Shown: piece by piece, positions 9,755-63,105 of the stretch
How the letters are laid out: each line of letters opens with the position of its first letter
Numbering within the stretch: the first letter of the stretch is position 1
Notes under the pieces: model-generated
Databases searched by the model: none
Told to the model about the DNA's origin: nothing
What the model saw: only the letters and a program-made list of their open reading frames with translations
From: Patescibacteria group bacterium
GTDB taxonomy: Bacteria; Patescibacteriota; Patescibacteriia; UBA10025; JAHIVO01
Assembly (NCBI GenBank): GCA_041650915.1
Contig: JBAZKE010000005.1
Coordinates: 11,310-75,309, forward strand
Direction: 5' to 3'
Length of the DNA stretch: 64,000 nucleotides
Translations under genes and position numbers: made by a program

Positions 9755-9800
9755 AATGTTATCCTCATTCTGAACTTGTTTCAGAATCTAACCAATATAA

Positions 9801-23682: not shown

Positions 23683-24042
23683 TTATTTTGATTTTTCCAG
23701 AATTGCCCCAAAAATCTTCATGAGCTCGGTTGATTCCTGGATGAGCTTTTTTCTACTTTCAAATTCTCTCTGGTCAGGTTCAGTAAGTTCTAACCAATAT
23801 CTCCTCTCCTTTGCTTCCTTGCGGCAGATTTTAACGCGCATTATAAAATCCTTCTTGCTTAACGCTTCGTTTGCTTCGATGTAGTTTGCACCGACAGAAC
23901 CTGCTGAACGAACTAACTGTTTTCCAAACTCATAGTGGCTCACGCTCTTTGGTAAGGTTTTGCAGTATCGAGATACACTTCTGGTATAGTTAAGCGTTCT
24001 ATCCTCCAAATCAAACCGTTTTGAATTTTGAATTTCCGTCAT
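23683..24042 (-). CDS. four-helix-bundle protein (23S rRNA intervening-sequence protein family)
   Basis: 119 aa. LVRSAGSVGANYIEANEA.SKKDF..K..IC.KEAKE...WL matches the family signature. Paralog of 26170..26547. Confidence 0.75.
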   Translation of the reverse strand: MTEIQNSKRFDLEDRTLNYTRSVSRYCKTLPKSVSHYEFGKQLVRSAGSVGANYIEANEALSKKDFIMRVKICRKEAKERRYWLELTEPDQREFESRKKLIQESTELMKIFGAILEKSK

Positions 24043-26169: not shown

Positions 26170-26547
26170 CTAATTAACGACTCCTCGATTCGTTGAATGC
26201 ACTATTGCATTGAAAATTAAATTCAGTTCCTTTGCTTCTTGCAGTAGTGGCTGTACTTTTTCTTCTTGAACAGAATCAGCTGCTACAACCATTCGTAACC
26301 AATGTTTTGTTTCACGCGCCTCTTTCTTACAGATTCCGATTTTGTGCTTAAAATCCTTCCTCGATTCAGCATCGTCTGCCTCGCAGTAATTTGCGCCAAC
26401 GCTTGTCGCTGACCGTACGAGTTGAGTAATGAGAGGCCGGGTTACGGAACTCTCCGGGATCTGCCGTGCGAATCCAATAACGGCTCGGCCGAACTTCGCA
26501 GTACGTTCTTCTAAATCAAACTTCTTTGTCATTCCGTCATTGGTCAT
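26170..26547 (-). CDS. four-helix-bundle protein (23S rRNA IVS protein family), paralog
   Basis: 125 aa. LVRSATSVGANYCEADDAESRKDF.HKIGICKKEARETKHWL. Confidence 0.75.
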   Translation of the reverse strand: MTNDGMTKKFDLEERTAKFGRAVIGFARQIPESSVTRPLITQLVRSATSVGANYCEADDAESRKDFKHKIGICKKEARETKHWLRMVVAADSVQEEKVQPLLQEAKELNLIFNAIVHSTNRGVVN

Positions 26548-26586: not shown

Positions 26587-27582
26587 TTACAACCCATTAC
26601 TCCACATCATCATGCGGATCTTGCCTACATCCCGCGTCTGCCCCAAAACCCACATGAAGCGGACAAACGCGGTTTCAAACGTCATGTCGTTGACGAGGAT
26701 ATACTCGCGCTTTTTCTTTTTTACGTCCAGGGCAAAGGGGTTGTGCGCGAGAATCGGCACCTTTTTCTTGTACGCACGATCGAGTACCGGCTTGTAGCTC
26801 TCCGGAAACAAATTCGTATTGAAGCTCTTGATAACGATGCCTTTGCACCCCTTTCGCATCATGCTATCCAAGAGCTCCGGCCCTGCGCCCGGGTACAGCT
26901 GCAGCAAACATACCGTATCCTCGACCGAATCAAACAGCTTGGGTTTTTGCTTCGAGCGCTTTTTGGCTGCCTCGTATACCTTGATGCCAAAATCAACCTT
27001 GCCGAGCAATCCGTCCCGATACGCGTCAAAAATGTTGAACGAAGGCGAATCGCTCTTGACCGCCTTGGTCGCCTTGAGGAGGCGGTTGCCGAACATGATC
27101 GCCGCCTCGGCGATGTCCATGGTCGCGACCTGTATCGCGTTGATGAGGTTCGCCTTCACGCCGAGCGTCTTGTAGTTGTGTATGAGGCCGGAGAGGTCCT
27201 GCTTTCCGCTGTCGGTCACCTCGACTGACAGCGGCGATCCGGTGAAGATGACCGGCTTCGGAAGGGGCTGCAGCATGTGGGCTATCATTGCGGATGAGTA
27301 GAGCATCGTATCAATTCCGTGGATAATGACAAAGCCGTCGTACCTCGGCATCCGGTCGAATATTTCGCGGGCGAGCTTTGACCAGAGCTTCGGTTCGATC
27401 TCGGACGCGTCCCCGCCGAAAACGAACACCGGCTCGACATCGGCGATAAGGTTGATTTCCGGCACAGCGGCAATCCACGCCTTCATGTCAGGCGCTTTTT
27501 GAACGGAAATCACCTTCTCCCCTGCAACGAGTGCAGATCCTCCGCAGAACAGCAATGCAATTTTTGACTTTTTTGATGACAT
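26587..27582 (-). CDS. L-asparaginase family protein (type I-like)
   Basis: 331 aa. IALLFCGGS..., and VIIHGIDTMLYSS corresponds to the asparaginase hGTDTM motif. Confidence 0.75.
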   Translation of the reverse strand: MSSKKSKIALLFCGGSALVAGEKVISVQKAPDMKAWIAAVPEINLIADVEPVFVFGGDASEIEPKLWSKLAREIFDRMPRYDGFVIIHGIDTMLYSSAMIAHMLQPLPKPVIFTGSPLSVEVTDSGKQDLSGLIHNYKTLGVKANLINAIQVATMDIAEAAIMFGNRLLKATKAVKSDSPSFNIFDAYRDGLLGKVDFGIKVYEAAKKRSKQKPKLFDSVEDTVCLLQLYPGAGPELLDSMMRKGCKGIVIKSFNTNLFPESYKPVLDRAYKKKVPILAHNPFALDVKKKKREYILVNDMTFETAFVRFMWVLGQTRDVGKIRMMMWSNGL

Positions 27583-27744
27583 TTCTGTTGGTCATTCTGG
27601 GTCCCGCTTTTCGGGACGAAGAATCTTTATGGCGTAATTGAATGACTTTCTTAAATTATTTCACGGTAGGTTTCGAAACTCCCAGCTTACTCCTTCAGAT
27701 GGCTCCTTCCCTGCCTATGGGCAGGCCCACGCGATGTCGGAAAA

Positions 27745-28010
27745 AAGCATGCCATGGCGAGGAGGAATCCCCTTCTCCCCTCCGCCACTCTGAGCCCACC
27801 GAAGCGCCATCGCGGAAGGCAGGAAAAGAATCCCCTGGCCGGAGGCTTCGAGATCGCCACGTCGCCTTCGGCTCCTTGCGATGACCCAGGGAAAAAGCAT
27901 GTCGTTGCGAGAAAGAATCCCCTTCTCCCCTCTGTCACTCTGACGACGGCGTAAGCCGGAGAAAGAGTCCCCTGGCCGGAGGCCAGGAGATACTTCGCTT
28001 TCGCTCAGTA
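27745..28010. repeat. array of degenerate ~150-bp palindromic repeat units immediately 3' of GIY-YIG gene 1
   Basis: The unit ccctggccggaggcttcgagatcgccacgtcgccttcggctccttgcgatgacccagggaaaaagcatgtc (27831..27902) recurs at 28990..29060 and partially at 29200..29262. The sub-motifs gaatccccttctcccctc.g.cactctga and gtc(a/g)t(t/g)gcgag also recur. Confidence 0.6.
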
Positions 28011-28313
28011 TGACTCGGGGAATAAGTCTTTGCTCAAGTCACGCCACGTGGGATTCAATCCTTTAATGAGCATCACCTTCTTCTTCCGTAACCATCCTTT
28101 GATCTGTTTTTCTCTCGCGATGGCTATTCGTATGTCATCTATTACCTCATAGTAGACAAGCTTGTTTGCATTGTACTTCGCCGTAAAACATTTGTTTACC
28201 TTATCACGGTGCTCATGAACTCGGCGTTGCAAATTATTCGTTACACCAGTATAAAGAACCCTGTTGAATTTATTCGTCATGATATACACGCAGTACTGCC
28301 GTTCCCGTCGCAT
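28005..28313 (-). CDS. GIY-YIG nuclease family protein (UPF0213-like), copy 1
   Basis: Internal start at ATG 28313 (MRRERQYCVYIMTNKFNRVLYTGVTNNLQRRVHEH), the GIY-YIG motif pair, about 103 aa. The track ORF, extended to 28382, would overlap the neighbouring gene. Confidence 0.8.
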   Translation of the reverse strand: MRRERQYCVYIMTNKFNRVLYTGVTNNLQRRVHEHRDKVNKCFTAKYNANKLVYYEVIDDIRIAIAREKQIKGWLRKKKVMLIKGLNPTWRDLSKDLFPESY

Positions 28314-28320
28314 AGGATTT

Positions 28321-28953
28321 TTATACGGCATCAAGGTTCTTCGCCCGCCGCGTCCGCCCAGAACGGCAAACGTAGGCCACAATTACTGCAATAATAACGG
28401 TACTGAATGCCCCGATGGTATTGAGAAGCATATCATTGCCCGTATCTGGCCCGTCGCCAAAACGGTTGCCACCAGTAATCAAATCCTCAATGTACTCTTC
28501 CAGTTCATAAAAAACTCCGAGCGTGGACGCGATCGTGAATGCAAACAAGCCCACAAGCCATGGCGACAGCGCGATCTTTCCGCTTTTTTTCAGGAGCCAC
28601 AGCGCGTTGAATGACAGGAGCGCTGCCATTGCCGTGCCGCACAAATGCCCTGCCTGGTCATACCAGTCAAATTTGTTGTACCAGTGCATCGTATCCCCGA
28701 GAGCGTCAAATGATACGCTGAAAAGCGCTCCGGCGAATACGAACCACGGCAGCGGATTGCCAGTAGACTTTTTCACCCGGTATGAAACAAACTCAACCGC
28801 AAGCCACACGAAAAACGCCGTAACGAACAGCCCGAGCCAGGTGAAGTCGAGCGTGAAATCCAGCACCCCAGCGTAGTTAAGCAATTCAAACGATATCCAG
28901 CCCGCAAATCCGAGCCGCATGGCATTGGTGAGCACTTTGTTTGTCTTTTCCAT
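28321..28953 (-). CDS. hypothetical integral membrane protein (about 6 TM)
   Basis: 210-aa hydrophobic ORF. Its last ~15 codons overlie the conserved leader of the GIY-YIG module. Confidence 0.55.
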   Translation of the reverse strand: MEKTNKVLTNAMRLGFAGWISFELLNYAGVLDFTLDFTWLGLFVTAFFVWLAVEFVSYRVKKSTGNPLPWFVFAGALFSVSFDALGDTMHWYNKFDWYDQAGHLCGTAMAALLSFNALWLLKKSGKIALSPWLVGLFAFTIASTLGVFYELEEYIEDLITGGNRFGDGPDTGNDMLLNTIGAFSTVIIAVIVAYVCRSGRTRRAKNLDAV

Positions 28954-28974
28954 AGTCGATATGTAATTCTATTT

Positions 28975-29290
28975 ATTTGTCACTCTGACCCTGGCCGGAG
29001 GCTTCGAGATCGCCACGTCGCCTTCGGCTCCTTGCGATGACCCAGGGAAAAAGCATGTCATGGCGAGCGAAGCGAATGGTCCCCTGCTCCCTCTGTTACT
29101 CTGAATGAAGAGAAGAATCCCATGACCGATGGTCTGATGATCACCACGTCCCTCCTCCTTCTGTCACTCTGACGACGGTGCAAGCCGGAGGAAGAATCCC
29201 CTGGCCGGAGGCTTCGAGATCGCCACGCCCTTCACTCCGTTCGGGCTCGCAATGACAAAGAAAAACGCAGGTCATTGCGAGGAGGGACGA
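28975..29290. repeat. second array of the same palindromic repeat family, 3' of GIY-YIG gene 2, including an 11-bp perfect hairpin ctcgcaatgac/gtcattgcgag
   Basis: 28990..29060 is almost identical to 27831..27902. 29247..29280 forms a hairpin, ctcgcaatgac-N14-gtcattgcgag. Confidence 0.6.
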
Positions 29291-29300
29291 CGAAGCAATC

Positions 29301-29600
29301 TCATTGGTACCAATCTACCGCTAGGTCCTTCCACTGTTTATTATCCTTTTCAATTAGCTGAACTTTCTTACGTCTCGAGCCTGCTTTCAGTTGCTTCTCC
29401 CGTGCGATTGCGTCCATCGGATTATCAAACACTTCGTAATAAACTAACTTATTAATATTATACTTGCTCGTAAAACCTTTGACTGCTTTTATTTTGTGTT
29501 GGTACACGCGGCCTTCTAAATGACCCGTGACCCCTATATACAAAACCGTATTCGTCTTATTCGTCATAATGTACACGCAGTACTGCCTTTCCTGACGCAT
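29301..29600 (-). CDS. GIY-YIG nuclease family protein (UPF0213-like), copy 2
   Basis: 99 aa. MRQERQYCVYIMTNKTNTVLYIGVTGHLEGRVYQHK. The upstream leader (29612..29660) resembles the leader of copy 1. Confidence 0.8.
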   Translation of the reverse strand: MRQERQYCVYIMTNKTNTVLYIGVTGHLEGRVYQHKIKAVKGFTSKYNINKLVYYEVFDNPMDAIAREKQLKAGSRRKKVQLIEKDNKQWKDLAVDWYQ

Positions 29601-29665
29601 AGGATGTATTCATACTGCATGAGGGTTCTTCGCCCGCGGCACTCGCTCAGAACGGAAAACGTTTT

Positions 29666-31135
29666 TTACCCCACCTTCTCCCCCAGCATTTGCAGCCGTA
29701 TCCGCTCTATCGCGTCGCGGTACTGCAGGGCGCTCGCCAGCGTGTACGTTACCTGGTCCCGCAGCTGCTTAAGGTACTCGACGTCTTGTACCGTATACGC
29801 CTGCTGCTTCTCCCGCTCTCCGAGCGCGATGAGCCCGATGACCTCATCTTCCGTTTTGAATCCCATGATGAGCGACAGCTTCCGTTTTTTCATCTCTTTT
29901 TCCAGCCGCCCGAGCTGCTGCGCATGCCGTTCATCGACTTCACTGATTATGTGGGGAATCTCGTCGCGGACGAGCGGCCGCCAGTGCGAGGAATAATAGT
30001 GGACGAACCCATTGCCCAAATCGAGCGACTCGTGTATGTATTCGTCAGGATGGTACGTAAGCTTGCCCTCCTTGCGATCCAGCAAAAAAAACTTAAGCTC
30101 CTGTATGCTCAAGTATTGTTTAATGTTATTCACAATCACCTCAACGAGCTCATCAATGCCGGTCTTTTTTGCAATCCGCTCCTTCAGCTCTTTTACCGCA
30201 AGATCAATGCTCTTGCGGTCTTTGAAAATGGAGTTGATAAGCCGTTCGATAAACTTCTTGAGCGGCGGAAAACCGAGCGCGACGAGTACTATGAGGATTA
30301 CCGCTGTCCAGGTTGGTGAAACATTCCACGACTCTTCAATATTTGTTTTCAGCAACAGCGCAAGGTATGTATATACCGCTAATGCAATAAAAAGTGAAAC
30401 TCCGTAAACAATACTTTTTCGGACAACGATATGAATATCCATAAAGCGATAACGAAGCATCGCATACGCACTCATAAATGCGAACAAGAACGTTACACTT
30501 ACTAAAGGTGCGTAAATTAATGGCGACAATCTGCTGTGCAAGGCATTGAAAGCACTTGCAAAAAGTGCGCAACTGATAGAGATACTATATCCAATTAGTA
30601 TATACGTAATCTGCATCCTAGTAATCGAATTTGAGTTTTTATATTTTTTGAATAAAATCAAGAGAGGAAACACTAAAAAGTAAACGACTAAAATAATAAA
30701 ATAGATAATATAGAACGTAAGGTCATACTTGGCGACGTTATACTCAACCATCATCATAACCTTGCCAATCAGTACTAGCCAGATGGCGATTAGGATTGGA
30801 ATGAATAATAGAACTGCATAGAATAACTTAATCTTTTTCGACCTAGCCGGAAAATGAAGGCAAAAAAGCGTGAACCAATACGGAATTAGTGGTGCAACAG
30901 CAAAATCAATTTTACTTAGTATGATATGTATGTGAAAAGGAATGGATGCAATCATTTCTAAAAGGGTGAGAAGAACCCAGGAAAATCCAAATAATAACGT
31001 AATAAAAAAAAGAATATAGGTACTATTCTTTTTCCAATTCAAAAGCACAAAGATGAATAGTATAACATAAGCAAGTACGTTAATTGTGGTTACTACTATT
31101 GCTACTTTGTAATCCATATCCTTGCGCCGTCTCAA
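29666..31135 (-). CDS. membrane sensor module (multi-TM + GAF) without output domain; third paralog
   Basis: 489 aa. The TM block ends with AMLRYRFMDIHIVVRKS, followed by a GAF-like region. No kinase motifs. Confidence 0.65.
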   Translation of the reverse strand: MRRRKDMDYKVAIVVTTINVLAYVILFIFVLLNWKKNSTYILFFITLLFGFSWVLLTLLEMIASIPFHIHIILSKIDFAVAPLIPYWFTLFCLHFPARSKKIKLFYAVLLFIPILIAIWLVLIGKVMMMVEYNVAKYDLTFYIIYFIILVVYFLVFPLLILFKKYKNSNSITRMQITYILIGYSISISCALFASAFNALHSRLSPLIYAPLVSVTFLFAFMSAYAMLRYRFMDIHIVVRKSIVYGVSLFIALAVYTYLALLLKTNIEESWNVSPTWTAVILIVLVALGFPPLKKFIERLINSIFKDRKSIDLAVKELKERIAKKTGIDELVEVIVNNIKQYLSIQELKFFLLDRKEGKLTYHPDEYIHESLDLGNGFVHYYSSHWRPLVRDEIPHIISEVDERHAQQLGRLEKEMKKRKLSLIMGFKTEDEVIGLIALGEREKQQAYTVQDVEYLKQLRDQVTYTLASALQYRDAIERIRLQMLGEKVG

Positions 31136-31550
31136 TAATTAGCGCCGTCGCTCGTTTTTAGCGTACCACCGTCCCCTCCGGTGTCAATCCCGGCTTCTGG
31201 ATAAGCTGTGGATAGTCATTTACAAGCTTGTTCAACCGTAGTAAACTGAGCGTATCAAGAAATACAAAAATCAATATTGTTTCCTCCATGGGCTTTCAGT
31301 CCGTTTGCAGAATGCCTTAACGCCGCATTGAGTCGCCTCAGGCGCGTGACGTGCTGGTACTCCTTCCTCCTTTGTAGCGTGGATGCCGCGACAATCCCCC
31401 CGGGTTTGGCAGTTGCCTGGGGGGAGAATATTTTCTGCCTTTGGCATGGTGCGGACGCTTCACATGGAGTGCGCTCATACATACGGATGCGCATGCAGTC
31501 CCTCCCCGAGGTCATGGCAACCGCCCGGATTGCCAGCCTCATTCCTCGCC

Positions 31551-31583
31551 GGGGTAGCGTTTCTCGCTGCCCCGTGCTTTTTT
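31551..31583 (+). terminator. intrinsic terminator (ggggtagcg-tttct-cgctgcccc + T7) with no plus-strand CDS upstream
   Basis: A 9-bp GC-rich stem followed by gtgcTTTTTTT. It lies in a 745-bp divergent intergenic region, so it implies a noncoding plus-strand transcript. Confidence 0.45.
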
Positions 31584-31880
31584 TATGCACATTGACGAAA
31601 AATATGGATTTTGTACAATACATCCAGAACGACCATCGGCCCACGATGGTTGTTCTTTTGTTTTCCTCAAGTAAACGATGCATAGAAATGGTATAATTAC
31701 CGTGTAAACAGCACTTCACACGCAAAAAAAGCGACGGCGCACGTATGAGCGCGCGGTCTCGGTTCGCGTGTGTTTACCCGCGTATAGCTGCTCGTTCTGA
31801 ACGTTCTTTACTGCGCCGTCGCACCCTTGCGCCGTCGCAAAAAGAGGTGGATAACTTGATTACTGATAAAAAATAATACT

Positions 31881-49747: not shown

Positions 49748-50431
49748 TCAAGCGATTACCGTCCCGCGGAACTTTTTCCCGGTAATGACGCTGCCCAGAT
49801 TCTTGAGATCGGTTCCCCTGCACACAACGACTCTCAATCCGAGCTTCCGGGCGAGTTTTGACGCTTCCGGATCGAACGGGACATGCGCACCCGGCCTCCA
49901 GGTACTGCCGGTGAGCTTGAGGAGCCCGCCCCAGCTCATCCGCTTGATCGGTTTCGCCGTGCTGCTCTTCCGCGGGTCCGCGGTATACACGTACGGGATA
50001 TTGCTCATGTTGATGACGGTTTTTGCCTGATAAACCTTGGCAAGCATGACGGCATCTTTATCCGATGAGTGGCCTGGCCGCCACCCGCTGCCGACAATAA
50101 TGCGTTTCGCTGTCGCCACCCGGCGCATCGGATTGCCGAGTACCCCGCCGTACGCGTGCGGCCCGAATACGGAACGTACGAGCTCCGCATTGAGCCGCGT
50201 GGCCGCGATGCCGATCCAATCCAAATCCGCAGCCGATACGTGCGAAACGGCACTGGCTCCGTGCTGGTAGTGGCGGCAGATATCCCCTCCCCCGGTAACG
50301 ATGACAAACCGGTGCCCAGCCCGGACATACCTGAGCACGAGGCTGCGGAACTTTTTCAAATACGCGGTATTGATCCGGTCAGGGATAATGATCGAGCCGC
50401 CAAGCGATAGGATGATCGTTTTTCGTCGCAT
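49748..50431 (-). CDS. pyrH: UMP kinase-like amino-acid-kinase-fold protein (short archaeal-type PyrH)
   Basis: 227 aa. IILSLGGSII...VIVTGGG... fits the aspartokinase/UMP-kinase fold at the short-PyrH length. Confidence 0.65.
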   Translation of the reverse strand: MRRKTIILSLGGSIIIPDRINTAYLKKFRSLVLRYVRAGHRFVIVTGGGDICRHYQHGASAVSHVSAADLDWIGIAATRLNAELVRSVFGPHAYGGVLGNPMRRVATAKRIIVGSGWRPGHSSDKDAVMLAKVYQAKTVINMSNIPYVYTADPRKSSTAKPIKRMSWGGLLKLTGSTWRPGAHVPFDPEASKLARKLGLRVVVCRGTDLKNLGSVITGKKFRGTVIA

Positions 50432-54067: not shown

Positions 54068-54635
54068 GTATTTCTGTAGTTTTAGTTATCCACAATAGAA
54101 TAGTAGAGCGCTAATCAATGGGGTATTTTTACGGTAATGCCCTTTTTTAAGATTACATTGACAAAAGGTATGGATATTCTAAGATATATTAACGGCTAAA
54201 ACCAGCCCTTGACAAACAATTCAGGATGTACTAACATAGACTATTAAAATCGTTCATTCGGATAGAGCAAAACCTTGGAGGGATGCACATTCTACATGAG
54301 CTTTAGGAGGAGCTAAAAAAAGACCAACACCAGGCTATAAAGCCTAAAAAACAAACTTTTTCACTCAAACGATTCGCAGAAAACCTTTAATTCGCAATTT
54401 TATTGCGAAAAGTTTATAACTTGGTGTTGGTTTTTTGTTTGCTTAGCTAAATTTACGAGCCGAAGTAAAAACCCAATCAATAATAAAATCGGCGATGGAA
54501 ATTCGGCTAAACAAACAATCTGACGCAAAGCGTCATCCTGAGCTGCCCGATGCACCAAAGGACCTCCTAACGACCAAATTAAAAATCTTACATATATTTA
54601 ATCAAGCTAACAACGATTAACAATAATTAAACGAA

Positions 54636-62428: not shown

Positions 62429-62791
62429 CTATCCACTGATAATCTTCATTAATAGTTCTATTACACCAGCGATGTTTCGGTAAACATCCTGATTAGTGAC
62501 CCTCACAATCCGGATGCCGAACGACTCGATATATTTCTGGCGCTGTTTATCGTATTCAATTGCTTCCTTTGAGATATAATGCGACGGCCCGTCAACCTCA
62601 ATCCCAAGCCTGAGCCGGGGGCAATAAAAATCAAGCACATACCCGCCTACGCTGTATTGCCGGCGAAACTTATAGCCAGCCAGCTGCTTGTCTTTCAAAT
62701 AACGCCACAGTACCACCTCCGCGCGTGGTGCACTGTTCCTGAGAGCCTGGCGCCGTTGCTTCATCGAGTGTGTGTTGTAGATGATTGTCAT
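62429..62791 (-). CDS. DUF559 endonuclease-domain protein (Vsr-like fold)
   Basis: 120 aa. GYKFRRQYSVGGYVLDFYCPRLRLGIEVDGPSHY matches the DUF559 core. Confidence 0.75.
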   Translation of the reverse strand: MTIIYNTHSMKQRRQALRNSAPRAEVVLWRYLKDKQLAGYKFRRQYSVGGYVLDFYCPRLRLGIEVDGPSHYISKEAIEYDKQRQKYIESFGIRIVRVTNQDVYRNIAGVIELLMKIISG

Positions 62792-62848: not shown

Positions 62849-63105
62849 TGCTCTTCCCCTCCTCAGTTGAGGAGGGGAAAACGTGACAAGTATGCCATAC
62901 CACGACGTTCGTAGAGAGGTGGTGGGGTCCTCTTCCCCTCCTCATAAAGAGGAGGTGCCTGAGGAGGGGAAAAAGCGATACGCCCGCCTTACCTGAACGT
63001 TGGTAGAGGGGTGGTGGTCCCCTTCCCCTCCTCATAAAGAGGAGGTGCCTGAGGAGGGGAAAAAGCGATACGCCCGCCTTACCTGAACGTTGGTAGAGGG
63101 GTGGT
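62849..63105. repeat. three tandem ~90-bp repeat units, each carrying a perfect 12-bp inverted repeat ttcccctcctca / tgaggaggggaa
   Basis: Units at ~62849..62925 (variant), 62926..63015 and 63016..63105. The latter two are near-identical. The track ORF 62826..63194 merely translates them. Confidence 0.8.

What the first reader, a model, noticed from the sequence alone, without database searches (positions are those of the whole stretch)
27745..29665. Duplicated GIY-YIG nuclease modules (leader + gene + palindromic repeat array), likely selfish or mobile cassettes
Two ~100-aa GIY-YIG genes (28005..28313 and 29301..29600) share a conserved upstream leader (ggttcttcgcccgc..c...cagaacgg.aaacg). 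Each is followed by an array of degenerate palindromic ~150-bp units, with a 72-bp near-exact match between 27831..27902 and 28990..29060 and hairpins such as ctcgcaatgac/gtcattgcgag. Both modules are wedged tightly against the 3' ends of unrelated genes, and the first overlaps the last codons of the membrane protein 28321..28953. This organisation suggests a small nuclease-associated repeat element that has copied itself locally.
Basis: seen in the sequence. Interest (0 to 1): 0.6.

Follow-up and report, generated by a model that had tools for sequence, protein, structure and literature searches.

The report
Ssn nuclease genes with hairpin repeats
The two small GIY-YIG genes and the palindromic repeats around them are a new example, in a Patescibacteria genome, of the Ssn nuclease / hairpin-repeat system described in 2025, so the finding is real but mostly already explained.

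Summary
Two intact ~100-aa GIY-YIG genes sit on the minus strand, each with a conserved upstream element and a downstream mosaic of palindromic repeats. The two mosaics share a 71-nt exact match.

The repeats are one family of oriented hairpins: GTCA, a covarying stem, then TC. The "leader" is a degenerate member of this family. In 80 loci from many phyla, 79% of intergenic regions next to a homologous gene carry such a hairpin, against 10% of other intergenic regions (p = 1e-26).

This system is published: Chenal et al. 2025 (PMC11893778), Ssn site-specific single-stranded-DNA nucleases and their NTS/SRM repeats. Both proteins align end to end, without gaps, with a gonococcal SsnA homolog (42% and 48% identity). 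The residues matching its mutated active-site positions are kept.

The genes did not copy themselves locally. They are 61% identical, and only a repeat segment is recently shared. Related genomes with the same gene order lack one or both cassettes, so gain or loss has occurred. I found no sign of recent transposition.

Modest new points:
- The host is a Patescibacteria genome.
- It carries two paralogs.
- The published SRM search string misses this hairpin class.
- Related genomes show occupied and empty sites.

The parts
29301..29600 (-). ssn-2: single-domain GIY-YIG nuclease gene, 99 aa
   Evidence: Pfam GIY-YIG E = 3.9e-16. 48% identical over 91 residues, without gaps, to a gonococcal SsnA homolog, E = 9e-31. 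Y10, Y21 and E68 are conserved.
28005..28313 (-). ssn-1: single-domain GIY-YIG nuclease gene, 102 aa. The last codons and the stop lie inside repeat unit U1.
   Evidence: Pfam GIY-YIG E = 1.5e-17. 42% identical over 93 residues, without gaps, to a gonococcal SsnA homolog, E = 3e-26. AlphaFold model pLDDT 90 with a GIY-YIG fold.
29624..29656 (-). 'Leader' 2: degenerate SRM-like unit TCC-GTTCT-GAGCG..GCGA-AGAAC-C, ending about 23 nt before the ssn-2 ATG
   Evidence: Covariance model R1 hit 29653..29624, 14.2 bits, E = 0.23. 81% identical to leader 1. The canonical hairpin is not its predicted lowest-energy fold.
28335..28367 (-). 'Leader' 1: degenerate SRM-like unit GCC-GTTCT-GGGCG..GCGA-AGAAC-C, about 20 nt before the ssn-1 ATG. 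It encodes the C-terminal tail of the DUF2238 protein.
   Evidence: R1 hit 28369..28332, 12.9 bits, E = 0.53. The DUF2238 tail CRSGRTRRAKNLDAV is unlike the tails of its homologs.
28954..29300 (.). Repeat mosaic 2, between the ssn-2 stop and the DUF2238 start. Units: 29271-29300(+), 29218-29256(-), 29163-29198(+), 29095-29119(+), 29057-29081(+, degenerate), 29008-29041(-), remnant 28979-28989(+).
27583..28004 (.). Repeat mosaic 1, between the ssn-1 stop and the asparaginase-like gene start. Units: 27989-28014(-, overlaps the stop), 27934-27969(+), 27901-27919(+, truncated), 27852-27885(-), 27784-27830(+, degenerate), 27751-27770(+, truncated), 27591-27625(+). GC palindrome at 27971-27987.
   Evidence: Best R1 hit 27986-28016(-), 29.3 bits, E = 3e-5.
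27833..27903 (.). Copy A of the 71-nt exact repeat (spacer + unit GTCATCGCAAGG..GGCGATC + GC palindrome)
   Evidence: blastn 71/71 identical to 28989-29059. D1 is 79 nt at 97%.
28989..29059 (.). Copy B of the 71-nt exact repeat
9765..9791 (+). Solitary unit of the same hairpin family (TCATTCTGAACTTGTTTCAGAATC), between an EamA transporter gene and an oxidoreductase gene
   Evidence: R1 22.7 bits, E = 0.0015. DNA fold z = -4.5.
54530..54567 (+). Possible solitary degenerate unit (GTCATCCTGAG..CAAAGGACC)
   Evidence: R1 12.1 bits, E = 0.84, which is weak

Best explanation
**What it is.** The region holds two paralogous genes of the Ssn family. These are about 95-100-aa single-domain GIY-YIG nucleases, placed in CDD cd10448 in the literature. 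Each gene is embedded in a cluster of its cognate oriented hairpin repeats, called NTS or SRM in the literature.

**Shown here:**
- Both proteins are full-length, gapless homologs of a gonococcal SsnA homolog, and the residues matching its mutated active-site positions are intact.
- The repeats are one family: T-GTCA, a 5-bp covarying stem, a G.A/A.G step, a GC-GNA-GC tip, then the closing stem and TC.
- The 'leader' in front of each gene is a degenerate unit in the same orientation as the gene.
- Units are strongly concentrated next to genes of this family, both in this window and across phyla.

**Taken from the published biochemistry of Neisseria and Wolbachia homologs, and only inferred for this organism:**
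- The protein binds the hairpin only in single-stranded DNA and only on the strand that reads GTCA...TC.
- It cuts a few nucleotides 5' of the hairpin.
- It does not act on duplex DNA or RNA.
- In Neisseria this lowers recombination of incoming transforming DNA that carries the repeats.

**Inferred history:**
- The cassettes were gained or lost on an evolutionary timescale, because related genomes with the same gene order lack them.
- The genes are old residents rather than recent copies.
- Repeat segments are still being homogenised or duplicated between the two arrays.
For: **Protein**
- Pfam GIY-YIG hits for both genes.
- BLASTP to the 94-aa gonococcal SsnA homolog gives E = 3e-26 and 9e-31, without gaps. 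That gene is itself flanked by 9 exact NTS copies.
- Y10, Y21 and E68 match the mutated Y6, Y17 and E64 of SsnA (PMC11893778).
- The predicted structure has pLDDT 90 and resembles UPF0213, Slx1 and UvrC GIY-YIG domains.

**Repeats**
- With the search anchored only on the loop motif, the flanking bases pair through compensatory changes: ATTCT/AGAAT, ATCCT/AGGAT, ATGCT/AGCAT, ATACT/AGTAT, ACCCT/AGGGT.
- An inner pair that played no part in the selection shows GC:45, AU:19 and none unpaired.
- The invariant bases of my alignment are GTC before the stem and C after it. These are the positions the paper found critical for cleavage and for binding.

**Association**
- 79% of intergenic regions adjacent to a homologous gene carry a unit, against 10% of others: odds ratio 35, p = 1e-26.
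- In the window, 4 of 4 adjacent spaces carry a hit against 2 of 41 others, p = 1e-4.
- The nearest unit upstream is mostly in the gene's orientation, and the nearest downstream unit is mostly inverted.
- The paper reports the same association: 71% of homologs have a nearby SRM, and 42% have one on both sides.

**Gain and loss**
- L087 has HisKA_7TM-DUF2238-asparaginase with no ssn gene, but has a hairpin doublet at the ssn-2 site.
- L088 has a gene only at the ssn-2 site.
Against: - The published SRM search string finds no match in the window and only 2 chance-like matches in the 80 homologous loci. The units here belong to SRM by architecture, not by the published definition.
- Most window units are weak hairpins by nearest-neighbour DNA energies. 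The two leaders do not adopt the canonical hairpin as their lowest-energy fold.
- The leaders carry GCC or TCC where the cleavage-critical GTC should be. They may be bound but not cut, or may be decayed.
- The CDD cd10448 assignment could not be checked.
- No biochemistry exists for this clade, which is 42-48% identical to the tested enzyme.
- The role of the system in a Patescibacteria cell is unknown.
Confidence: 0.85

Rival explanations
1. **Mobile cassette.** SRM-ssn-SRM is an insertion-sequence-like or REPIN/RAYT-like replicator. The GIY-YIG nuclease mobilises the hairpin doublets and its own gene through single-stranded DNA intermediates. This could be true in addition to the best explanation. 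Chenal et al. raise it as a hypothesis.
For: - In 23 of 80 loci the gene lies between a unit in its own orientation and an inverted unit, both within 80 nt.
- Away from the genes, the units occur mostly as convergent doublets with a 10-40-nt spacer: 112 of 157 adjacent pairs.
- A related genome has just such a doublet where this window has ssn-2.
- Syntenic genomes show presence and absence of the cassette.
- Homologs are 60-73% identical across many phyla.
- A homolog is wedged inside a DISARM operon on a Planktothrix plasmid.
- The absence of target-site duplications fits IS200/IS605-type elements.
Against: - Two proteins seen on 14 contigs each always occupy one and the same locus.
- The two window copies are 61% identical, with saturated third codon positions.
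- ssn-2 looks orthologous to the gene at the same site in L088, which points to long vertical residence.
- In many loci the units lie on one side only, or in other orientations.
- No junctions between closely related genomes with and without the cassette were found.
- No strand-transfer activity is known for GIY-YIG enzymes (my own knowledge).
Confidence: 0.3
2. **Free-standing homing endonuclease genes**, like the Seg genes of phage T4. The nuclease would cut duplex DNA at the empty intergenic site and be copied in by repair.
For: - GIY-YIG is a classic homing-endonuclease fold.
- Each identical protein occupies a single locus.
- Presence and absence occur at fixed sites.
Against: - There is no DNA-binding domain: the whole 99-102-aa protein is the catalytic domain.
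- The tested family members do not cut duplex DNA (PMC11893778).
- NCBIfam gives only a sub-threshold partial hit to the group I intron endonuclease model, 18.8 bits against a cut-off of 56.
- No homolog exists in 50,697 phage genomes.
Confidence: 0.05
3. **RNA-level elements.** The conserved 'leader' and the repeats would act as a cis-regulatory leader, an mRNA stabiliser or a terminator, unrelated to the nuclease activity.
For: - The leader is more conserved (81%) than the coding sequence (64%).
- It sits 20-23 nt before the start codon.
- Hairpins with G.A pairs and GNA loops can also form in RNA (my own knowledge).
Against: - The leaders fold no better than shuffles: z = +0.5 as RNA.
- Rfam has no match in the window or in 12 related loci.
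- No T-run follows the units.
- Units occur in both orientations relative to transcription.
- SsnA does not bind RNA.
- An auto-regulatory role of the upstream unit as a DNA binding site is not excluded.
Confidence: 0.07

Closest known systems
Ssn nucleases with NTS/SRM repeats (Chenal et al., Nat Commun 2025, PMC11893778; SsnA = NMV_0044 of Neisseria meningitidis)
   Same: - Single-domain ~94-102-aa GIY-YIG protein, 42-48% identical end to end, with the same catalytic residues.
- The gene is embedded in oriented hairpin repeats that carry GTC(A) before the stem and (A)TC after it.
- Repeats lie on both sides of the gene and cluster in mosaics.
   Different: - The hairpin body differs. Here it is a short A/T-rich stem plus a G.A/A.G step plus a GC-GNA-GC tip. 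NTS has the GC-rich stem TTCCCGCG/GCGGGAA.
- The published SRM search string does not match these units.
- The host is a Patescibacteria MAG with two paralogs 1 kb apart.
- The unit just upstream of each gene has lost the GTC tag.
- Activity and biological role are untested here.
REP/BIME repeats with RAYT (TnpA-REP) transposases; REPINs
   Same: - Short extragenic hairpins with a conserved tag.
- They occur as inverted doublets and mosaics.
- The associated nuclease gene is flanked by them.
- The enzyme recognises single-stranded hairpins.
- There are no target-site duplications.
- The genes are not multi-copy.
   Different: - The enzyme is a GIY-YIG nuclease, not a Y1 HUH transposase.
- The tag is GTCA, not GTAG.
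- No evidence of transposition chemistry exists.
UPF0213 / YhbQ-type stand-alone GIY-YIG proteins (PDB 1ZG2, 1YWL)
   Same: Small stand-alone GIY-YIG domain. These are the best sequence and fold matches among solved structures.
   Different: The relationship is distant (E = 2.8e-7, 24% identity). No repeat association or function is known for those entries.
GIY-YIG homing endonucleases (I-TevI, T4 Seg proteins)
   Same: The catalytic fold. The genes are found wedged between unrelated genes.
   Different: Homing enzymes have a long DNA-binding extension and cut duplex DNA. These proteins have neither feature: the first is shown here, the second is known for tested family members.

Membership tests
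Ssn nuclease family (PMC11893778) | Single-domain GIY-YIG protein of about 94 aa with no extra domain | tested here: met
   The proteins are 102 and 99 aa. The Pfam GIY-YIG match covers residues 6-79. The model is one compact domain with pLDDT 90.
Ssn nuclease family (PMC11893778) | Homology to N. meningitidis SsnA at E < 1e-10 (the paper's criterion) | tested here: met
   Against the 94-aa gonococcal homolog, which is flanked by 9 exact NTS copies: E = 3e-26 and 9e-31, 42% and 48% identity, no gaps. tblastn gave E = 1e-16 against 7.3 Gb. The meningococcal sequence itself was not available.
Ssn nuclease family (PMC11893778) | Catalytic residues equivalent to Y6, Y17 and E64 of SsnA | tested here: met
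   Y10, Y21 and E68 are present in both copies. Y10 and Y21 are invariant and E68 is nearly invariant in 32 homologs.
Ssn nuclease family (PMC11893778) | Assignment to CDD cd10448 (GIY-YIG_unchar_3) | not testable with these tools
   No CDD library is available. NCBIfam has no model above its cut-off.
Ssn nuclease family (PMC11893778) | Gene flanked by hairpin repeats on both sides | tested here: met
   Covariance-model hits and pattern hits lie on both sides of both genes.
SRM repeats (PMC11893778) | Match to the published search string HGTCWYN(0-2)YYVSBRHN(0-5)WNVSBRGN(0-2)RNCYNB | tested here: not met
   There are 0 matches in the window, against 0.29 expected in shuffles. There are 2 chance-like matches in 80 homologous loci. 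The same script recovers 9 of 9 NTS copies in the gonococcal locus.
SRM repeats (PMC11893778) | Oriented hairpin with a conserved trinucleotide upstream of the palindrome (needed for cleavage) and a C right after it (needed for binding) | tested here: met
   G3, T4, C5 and C27 are invariant in 66 units, and the stem covaries. Most window units keep both tags. The two leaders have GCC or TCC instead of GTC.
Ssn nuclease family (PMC11893778) | Cleaves single-stranded DNA only, next to its repeat, on one strand only | not testable with these tools
   This needs purified protein and oligonucleotides.
REP/RAYT system | Associated enzyme is a Y1 (HUH) IS200/IS605-type transposase; REP carries a GTAG tag | tested here: not met
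   The enzyme is a GIY-YIG nuclease and the tag is GTCA.
Insertion sequence (autonomous transposon) | Near-identical copies in different genomic contexts; target-site duplications | tested here: not met
   Identical proteins on 14 contigs each sit in one context. The window paralogs are 61% identical. There is no anchored direct repeat beyond chance at 105 doublets.
GIY-YIG homing endonuclease | Catalytic domain joined to a sequence-specific DNA-binding domain | tested here: not met
   Nothing exists beyond the catalytic domain. The group I intron endonuclease model scores 18.8 bits against a cut-off of 56.

The most novel reading that the evidence does not exclude
The hairpin doublet, with or without the ssn gene in its spacer, is a true replicator. 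It would be a bacterial mobile element whose enzyme is a GIY-YIG single-stranded-DNA nuclease, the GIY-YIG counterpart of REPIN/RAYT. It would spread across phyla and into phage genomes, where about 200 IMG/VR contigs carry exact doublets without the gene. The class seen here (G.A step, GNA tip) is invisible to the published SRM search, so the family's true extent would be underestimated.
Probability: 0.25. Interest if true: 0.7.

Novelty: new member of a known kind. Interest (0 to 1): 0.35.

Why it matters
The locus shows that the recently described Ssn / hairpin-repeat system extends to Patescibacteria (the candidate phyla radiation). It can occur as two diverged paralogs side by side.

The hairpins linked to this large, cross-phylum clade of Ssn genes keep the experimentally critical tags: GTC before the stem and C after it. 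Their hairpin body is different, and the published SRM search string misses it. Surveys that rely on that string would undercount the system.

Related genomes with occupied and empty sites give a concrete case for the open question raised by the original authors: whether repeat-ssn-repeat is, or once was, a mobile element. For annotation, the practical lesson is that these 'GIY-YIG nuclease family protein' genes and the spurious ORFs read from their repeats can be named.

Tried and rejected
1. **RNA leader.** The leaders fold no better than shuffles as RNA or as DNA. Rfam gives nothing in the window or in 12 related loci, apart from an unrelated DUF3800-IX motif in L287.
2. **Other copies of the window's own repeat variant.** A metagenome scan for the 28-nt core found 0 matches.
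3. **Other copies of the leader.** A metagenome scan for the leader pattern gave 68 matches. All lie in high-GC sequence and none is near a GIY-YIG gene, so they are chance matches.
4. **Assembly breaks as a sign of more copies.** The Logan contig breaks just past each gene fall inside the locally duplicated segments. They do not show further genomic copies.
5. **Recent transposition.** Two proteins seen on 14 contigs each lie in one locus each. A look-up of the neighbouring asparaginase-like protein found only the same population.
6. **Target-site duplications.** None beyond chance around 105 doublets.
7. **Link between the repeats and the 23S_rRNA_IVP (four-helix-bundle) genes.** No units flank them, and there is no co-occurrence in the 80 loci.
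8. **Reverse association.** Loci chosen by an exact unit in IMG/VR carry an ssn gene in only 1 of 197 cases. No other recurrent nuclease family lies next to the units there; the neighbours are phage structural genes.
9. **Defence-system libraries.** PADLOC gave no hit.
10. **Published SRM string.** No match.
11. **Literature searches** by repeat sequence and by 'GIY-YIG' plus REP/MITE terms found nothing. A broader term search then surfaced the Ssn paper.
Full report
**What is in the sequence**

All genes in this part of the window run on the minus strand. In order they are:
- a HisKA_7TM protein (31135..29666)
- a GIY-YIG gene of 99 aa (29600..29301, here ssn-2)
- 347 nt of repeats
- a DUF2238 membrane protein (28953..28321)
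- a GIY-YIG gene of 102 aa (28313..28005, ssn-1)
- 422 nt of repeats
- an asparaginase-like gene (27582..26587)
- a 23S_rRNA_IVP gene

NCBI names the source a Patescibacteria group bacterium MAG.

- The two upstream 'leaders' are 81% identical over 54 nt.
- The long match is 71 nt at 100%, 27833-27903 = 28989-29059.
- The gtcattgcgag/ctcgcaatgac hairpin exists.
- About 17 C-terminal codons of DUF2238 are read from the leader sequence.

One correction is needed. The arrays are not regular 150-bp units. Tandem Repeats Finder reports nothing there, and a 150-nt spacing appears only in the first array.

**What the repeats are**

I fetched 80 loci from one genome per species that encode a relative of the protein. 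They span Chloroflexota, Cyanobacteria, Nitrospinota, Planctomycetota, Bacteroidota, Firmicutes, several proteobacterial classes and Patescibacteria. The proteins are 55-67% identical to ssn-1.

Reading the DNA upstream of each start codon showed the same short element again and again. It reads GTCAT-NNN-GAG...GAAG-N'N'N'-ATC.

A pattern scan found 404 such units, against 68 in shuffled sequence. That scan required a paired stem, so I ran a second search anchored only on the loop motif (GAGCGNAGCGA and close variants). The flanking bases still pair, through compensatory changes: ATTCT/AGAAT, ATCCT/AGGAT, ATGCT/AGCAT, ATACT/AGTAT, ACCCT/AGGGT and ATGTT/AACAT.

In an alignment of 66 units, an inner pair that played no part in the selection reads GC in 45, AU in 19 and is never unpaired. 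The invariant bases are GTC just before the stem and C just after it.

The unit is therefore an oriented hairpin. It has a 5-bp variable stem, a G.A/A.G step and a GC-GNA-GC tip. From my own knowledge, GCGNAGC is a classically stable DNA mini-hairpin; this was not tested here.

A covariance model built only from units of other phyla places 7 of its 9 hits with E <= 1 in the 64-kb window inside 27589-29653. These include both leaders, on the gene strand, ending 20-23 nt before each ATG. The 'leader' is thus a degenerate member of the same repeat family. It has no significant fold of its own, and its GTC tag is changed to GCC or TCC.

By nearest-neighbour DNA energies most window units are weak hairpins. 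Only 27589-28 (27589-27628, z = -3.7) and 9762-9791 (z = -4.5) stand out. The case for structure rests on the comparison across loci, not on the energies.

**Association with the gene**

- In the 80 loci, 104 of 132 intergenic regions next to the GIY-YIG gene hold at least one unit. Only 9 of 94 other intergenic regions in the same loci do. Densities are 6.1 and 0.75 units per kb, the odds ratio is 35 and p = 1e-26.
- In the window, all four spaces adjacent to the two genes have a model hit, against 2 of 41 others (p = 1e-4).
- The nearest upstream unit within 80 nt is in the gene's orientation in 33 loci and inverted in 16. The nearest downstream unit is inverted in 39 and direct in 16. Both conditions hold in 23 of 80 loci.
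- The reverse association does not hold. Exact units occur in about 200 IMG/VR contigs, and only 1 of 197 such loci carries a homolog of the gene. There the units are mostly convergent doublets with a 10-40-nt spacer (112 of 157 adjacent pairs). They lie next to phage structural genes.

**It is a published system**

Searches by repeat sequence and by 'GIY-YIG' with REP/MITE terms found nothing. A broader term search surfaced Chenal et al. [quoted passage not shown] That paper reports the following:
- SsnA of Neisseria meningitidis is a 94-aa single-domain GIY-YIG protein, placed in CDD cd10448.
- It binds the hairpin repeat NTS (CGTCATTCCCGCGMAVGCGGGAATCYRG) only as single-stranded DNA and only on one strand.
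- It cuts a few nucleotides upstream of the repeat. It does not act on duplex DNA or RNA.
- The three bases before the palindrome matter most for cleavage. The C after the palindrome matters most for binding.
- 71% of homologs have such repeats (SRM) nearby, and 42% have them on both sides.
- 81% of genomes with more than 200 SRM encode a homolog.
- Deleting ssnA raises transformation with NTS-bearing DNA about five-fold.
- The authors note the resemblance of NTS-ssnA-NTS to insertion sequences and to REP/RAYT, as a hypothesis.

**Membership tests**

- A gonococcal chromosome held in the plasmid collection carries a 94-aa homolog flanked by nine exact NTS copies.
- ssn-1 and ssn-2 align with that homolog end to end without gaps: 42% and 48% identity, E = 3e-26 and 9e-31.
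- The residues matching the mutated Y6, Y17 and E64 are Y10, Y21 and E68. They are conserved in both copies and across 32 homologs.
- The predicted structure is a confident single GIY-YIG domain (pLDDT 90). Its nearest solved relatives are the uncharacterised UPF0213 proteins, Slx1 and the UvrC N-terminal domain.
- The invariant GTC and C of my independently built alignment coincide with the positions the paper found critical.
- One defining feature fails. The published SRM search string finds nothing in the window and only two chance-like matches in the 80 loci. The same script recovers all nine gonococcal NTS copies.

The repeats here are SRM in architecture and in the functional tags. They are a different hairpin class from the one that string encodes. 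CDD membership and enzymatic activity could not be tested.

**Did it copy itself, and is it mobile?**

The genes are not recent local copies:
- The proteins are 61% identical.
- The coding sequences are 64% identical, and 43% at third codon positions.
- ssn-1 has closer relatives in other samples (73%).

The leader core at 81% is better conserved than silent sites, which points to selection or conversion acting on it. The 71-nt exact match shows that repeat segments are still exchanged or duplicated between the two arrays.

Related Patescibacteria with the same gene order differ in content:
- L087 has HisKA_7TM-DUF2238-asparaginase with neither ssn gene. Only 10 nt separate DUF2238 from the asparaginase gene there. 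A convergent hairpin doublet sits where ssn-2 lies in the window.
- L088 has a gene only at the ssn-2 site, followed by two units.
- That L088 gene is 60% identical to ssn-2. The neighbouring DUF2238 proteins are 52-55% identical, so ssn-2 is plausibly an old, vertically inherited resident.

The evidence against recent transposition is as follows:
- Two homologs seen on 14 contigs each always sit in one locus.
- No close relative of the window lacks a cassette.
- No target-site duplication flanks 105 doublets.

Gain or loss has therefore happened. Active mobility is neither shown nor excluded.

**Mechanism, with its status**

- Shown here: the family membership of the proteins, the repeat anatomy, and the association between them.
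- Taken from the published biochemistry of homologs that are 42-48% identical: hairpin recognition in single-stranded DNA, cleavage 5' of the GTC tag, and strand specificity.
- Inferred: because both arrays hold units in both orientations, either strand of this region would be cut when single-stranded.
- Inferred: the tag-less upstream units may be binding-only sites.
- Unknown: the cellular role in this organism. Restriction of incoming or replicating single-stranded DNA is the only tested precedent.

**Verdict**

This is a real feature, correctly spotted. It is a new member of a known kind. What it adds to the literature is modest:
- the host lineage
- the paired paralogs
- a hairpin class that the published search string misses
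- related genomes showing occupied and empty sites
- exact doublets in viral contigs that lack the gene

Noticed in passing
window 31136-31880 (core 31270-31590 +; conserved block 31614-31663): About 745 nt with no convincing ORF. The GC-rich core folds with z = -2.3 and ends in a hairpin plus T-run. There is no Rfam or tRNA hit. A 34-50-nt hairpin plus T-run block is 94-100% identical in related loci L085, L086 and L087, whose proteins are only ~55% identical. This is a candidate conserved small RNA or terminator.
   Followed up: partly
window 26170-26547 (-) and 23683-24042 (-); L372 12460-12819: Two 23S_rRNA_IVP (four-helix-bundle) genes are wedged between unrelated genes, and they are absent from the same gene order in L087 and L088. 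On a Planktothrix agardhii plasmid, a four-helix-bundle gene and an Ssn-type GIY-YIG gene both sit inside a DISARM operon. These genes are not flanked by the hairpin units.
   Followed up: partly
window 62429-62791 (-) and 62905-63105: A DUF559 (Vsr-like endonuclease) gene lies next to a 90-nt tandem repeat of 2.2 copies at 95% identity.
   Followed up: no
window 49754-49788 (-): The hairpin GTCATTACC...GGTAATC carries the GTCA/ATC tags and lies inside the last codons of an amino-acid kinase gene. It may be a solitary unit or a chance match.
   Followed up: no
L372 17695-17765 and 18336-18406; also many of L005-L084: The outer half-arm of a unit (GTCATTCTGAG plus about 12 nt) is tandemly repeated two or more times in front of a complete unit. 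The duplications always fall on the tag side of the hairpin.
   Followed up: no
L372 14607-14726 and 16245-16424: Hairpin-unit doublets lie inside the annotated 1,560-aa MmeI-type ORF of the Planktothrix plasmid. They are either in-frame insertions or an annotation that runs through them.
   Followed up: no
L090-L286 (IMG/VR contigs): Exact copies of the generic units occur in about 200 viral contigs, mostly as convergent doublets next to phage structural genes. An Ssn gene is present in only 1 of 197 loci. No Ssn homolog exists in 50,697 deposited phage genomes.
   Followed up: partly
L287 2006-2086 (-): A DUF3800-IX RNA motif (Rfam RF02968, 52 bits) lies between a DUF3800 gene and an Ssn-type gene inside a type I restriction-modification operon. 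It is unrelated in sequence to the hairpin units.
   Followed up: no
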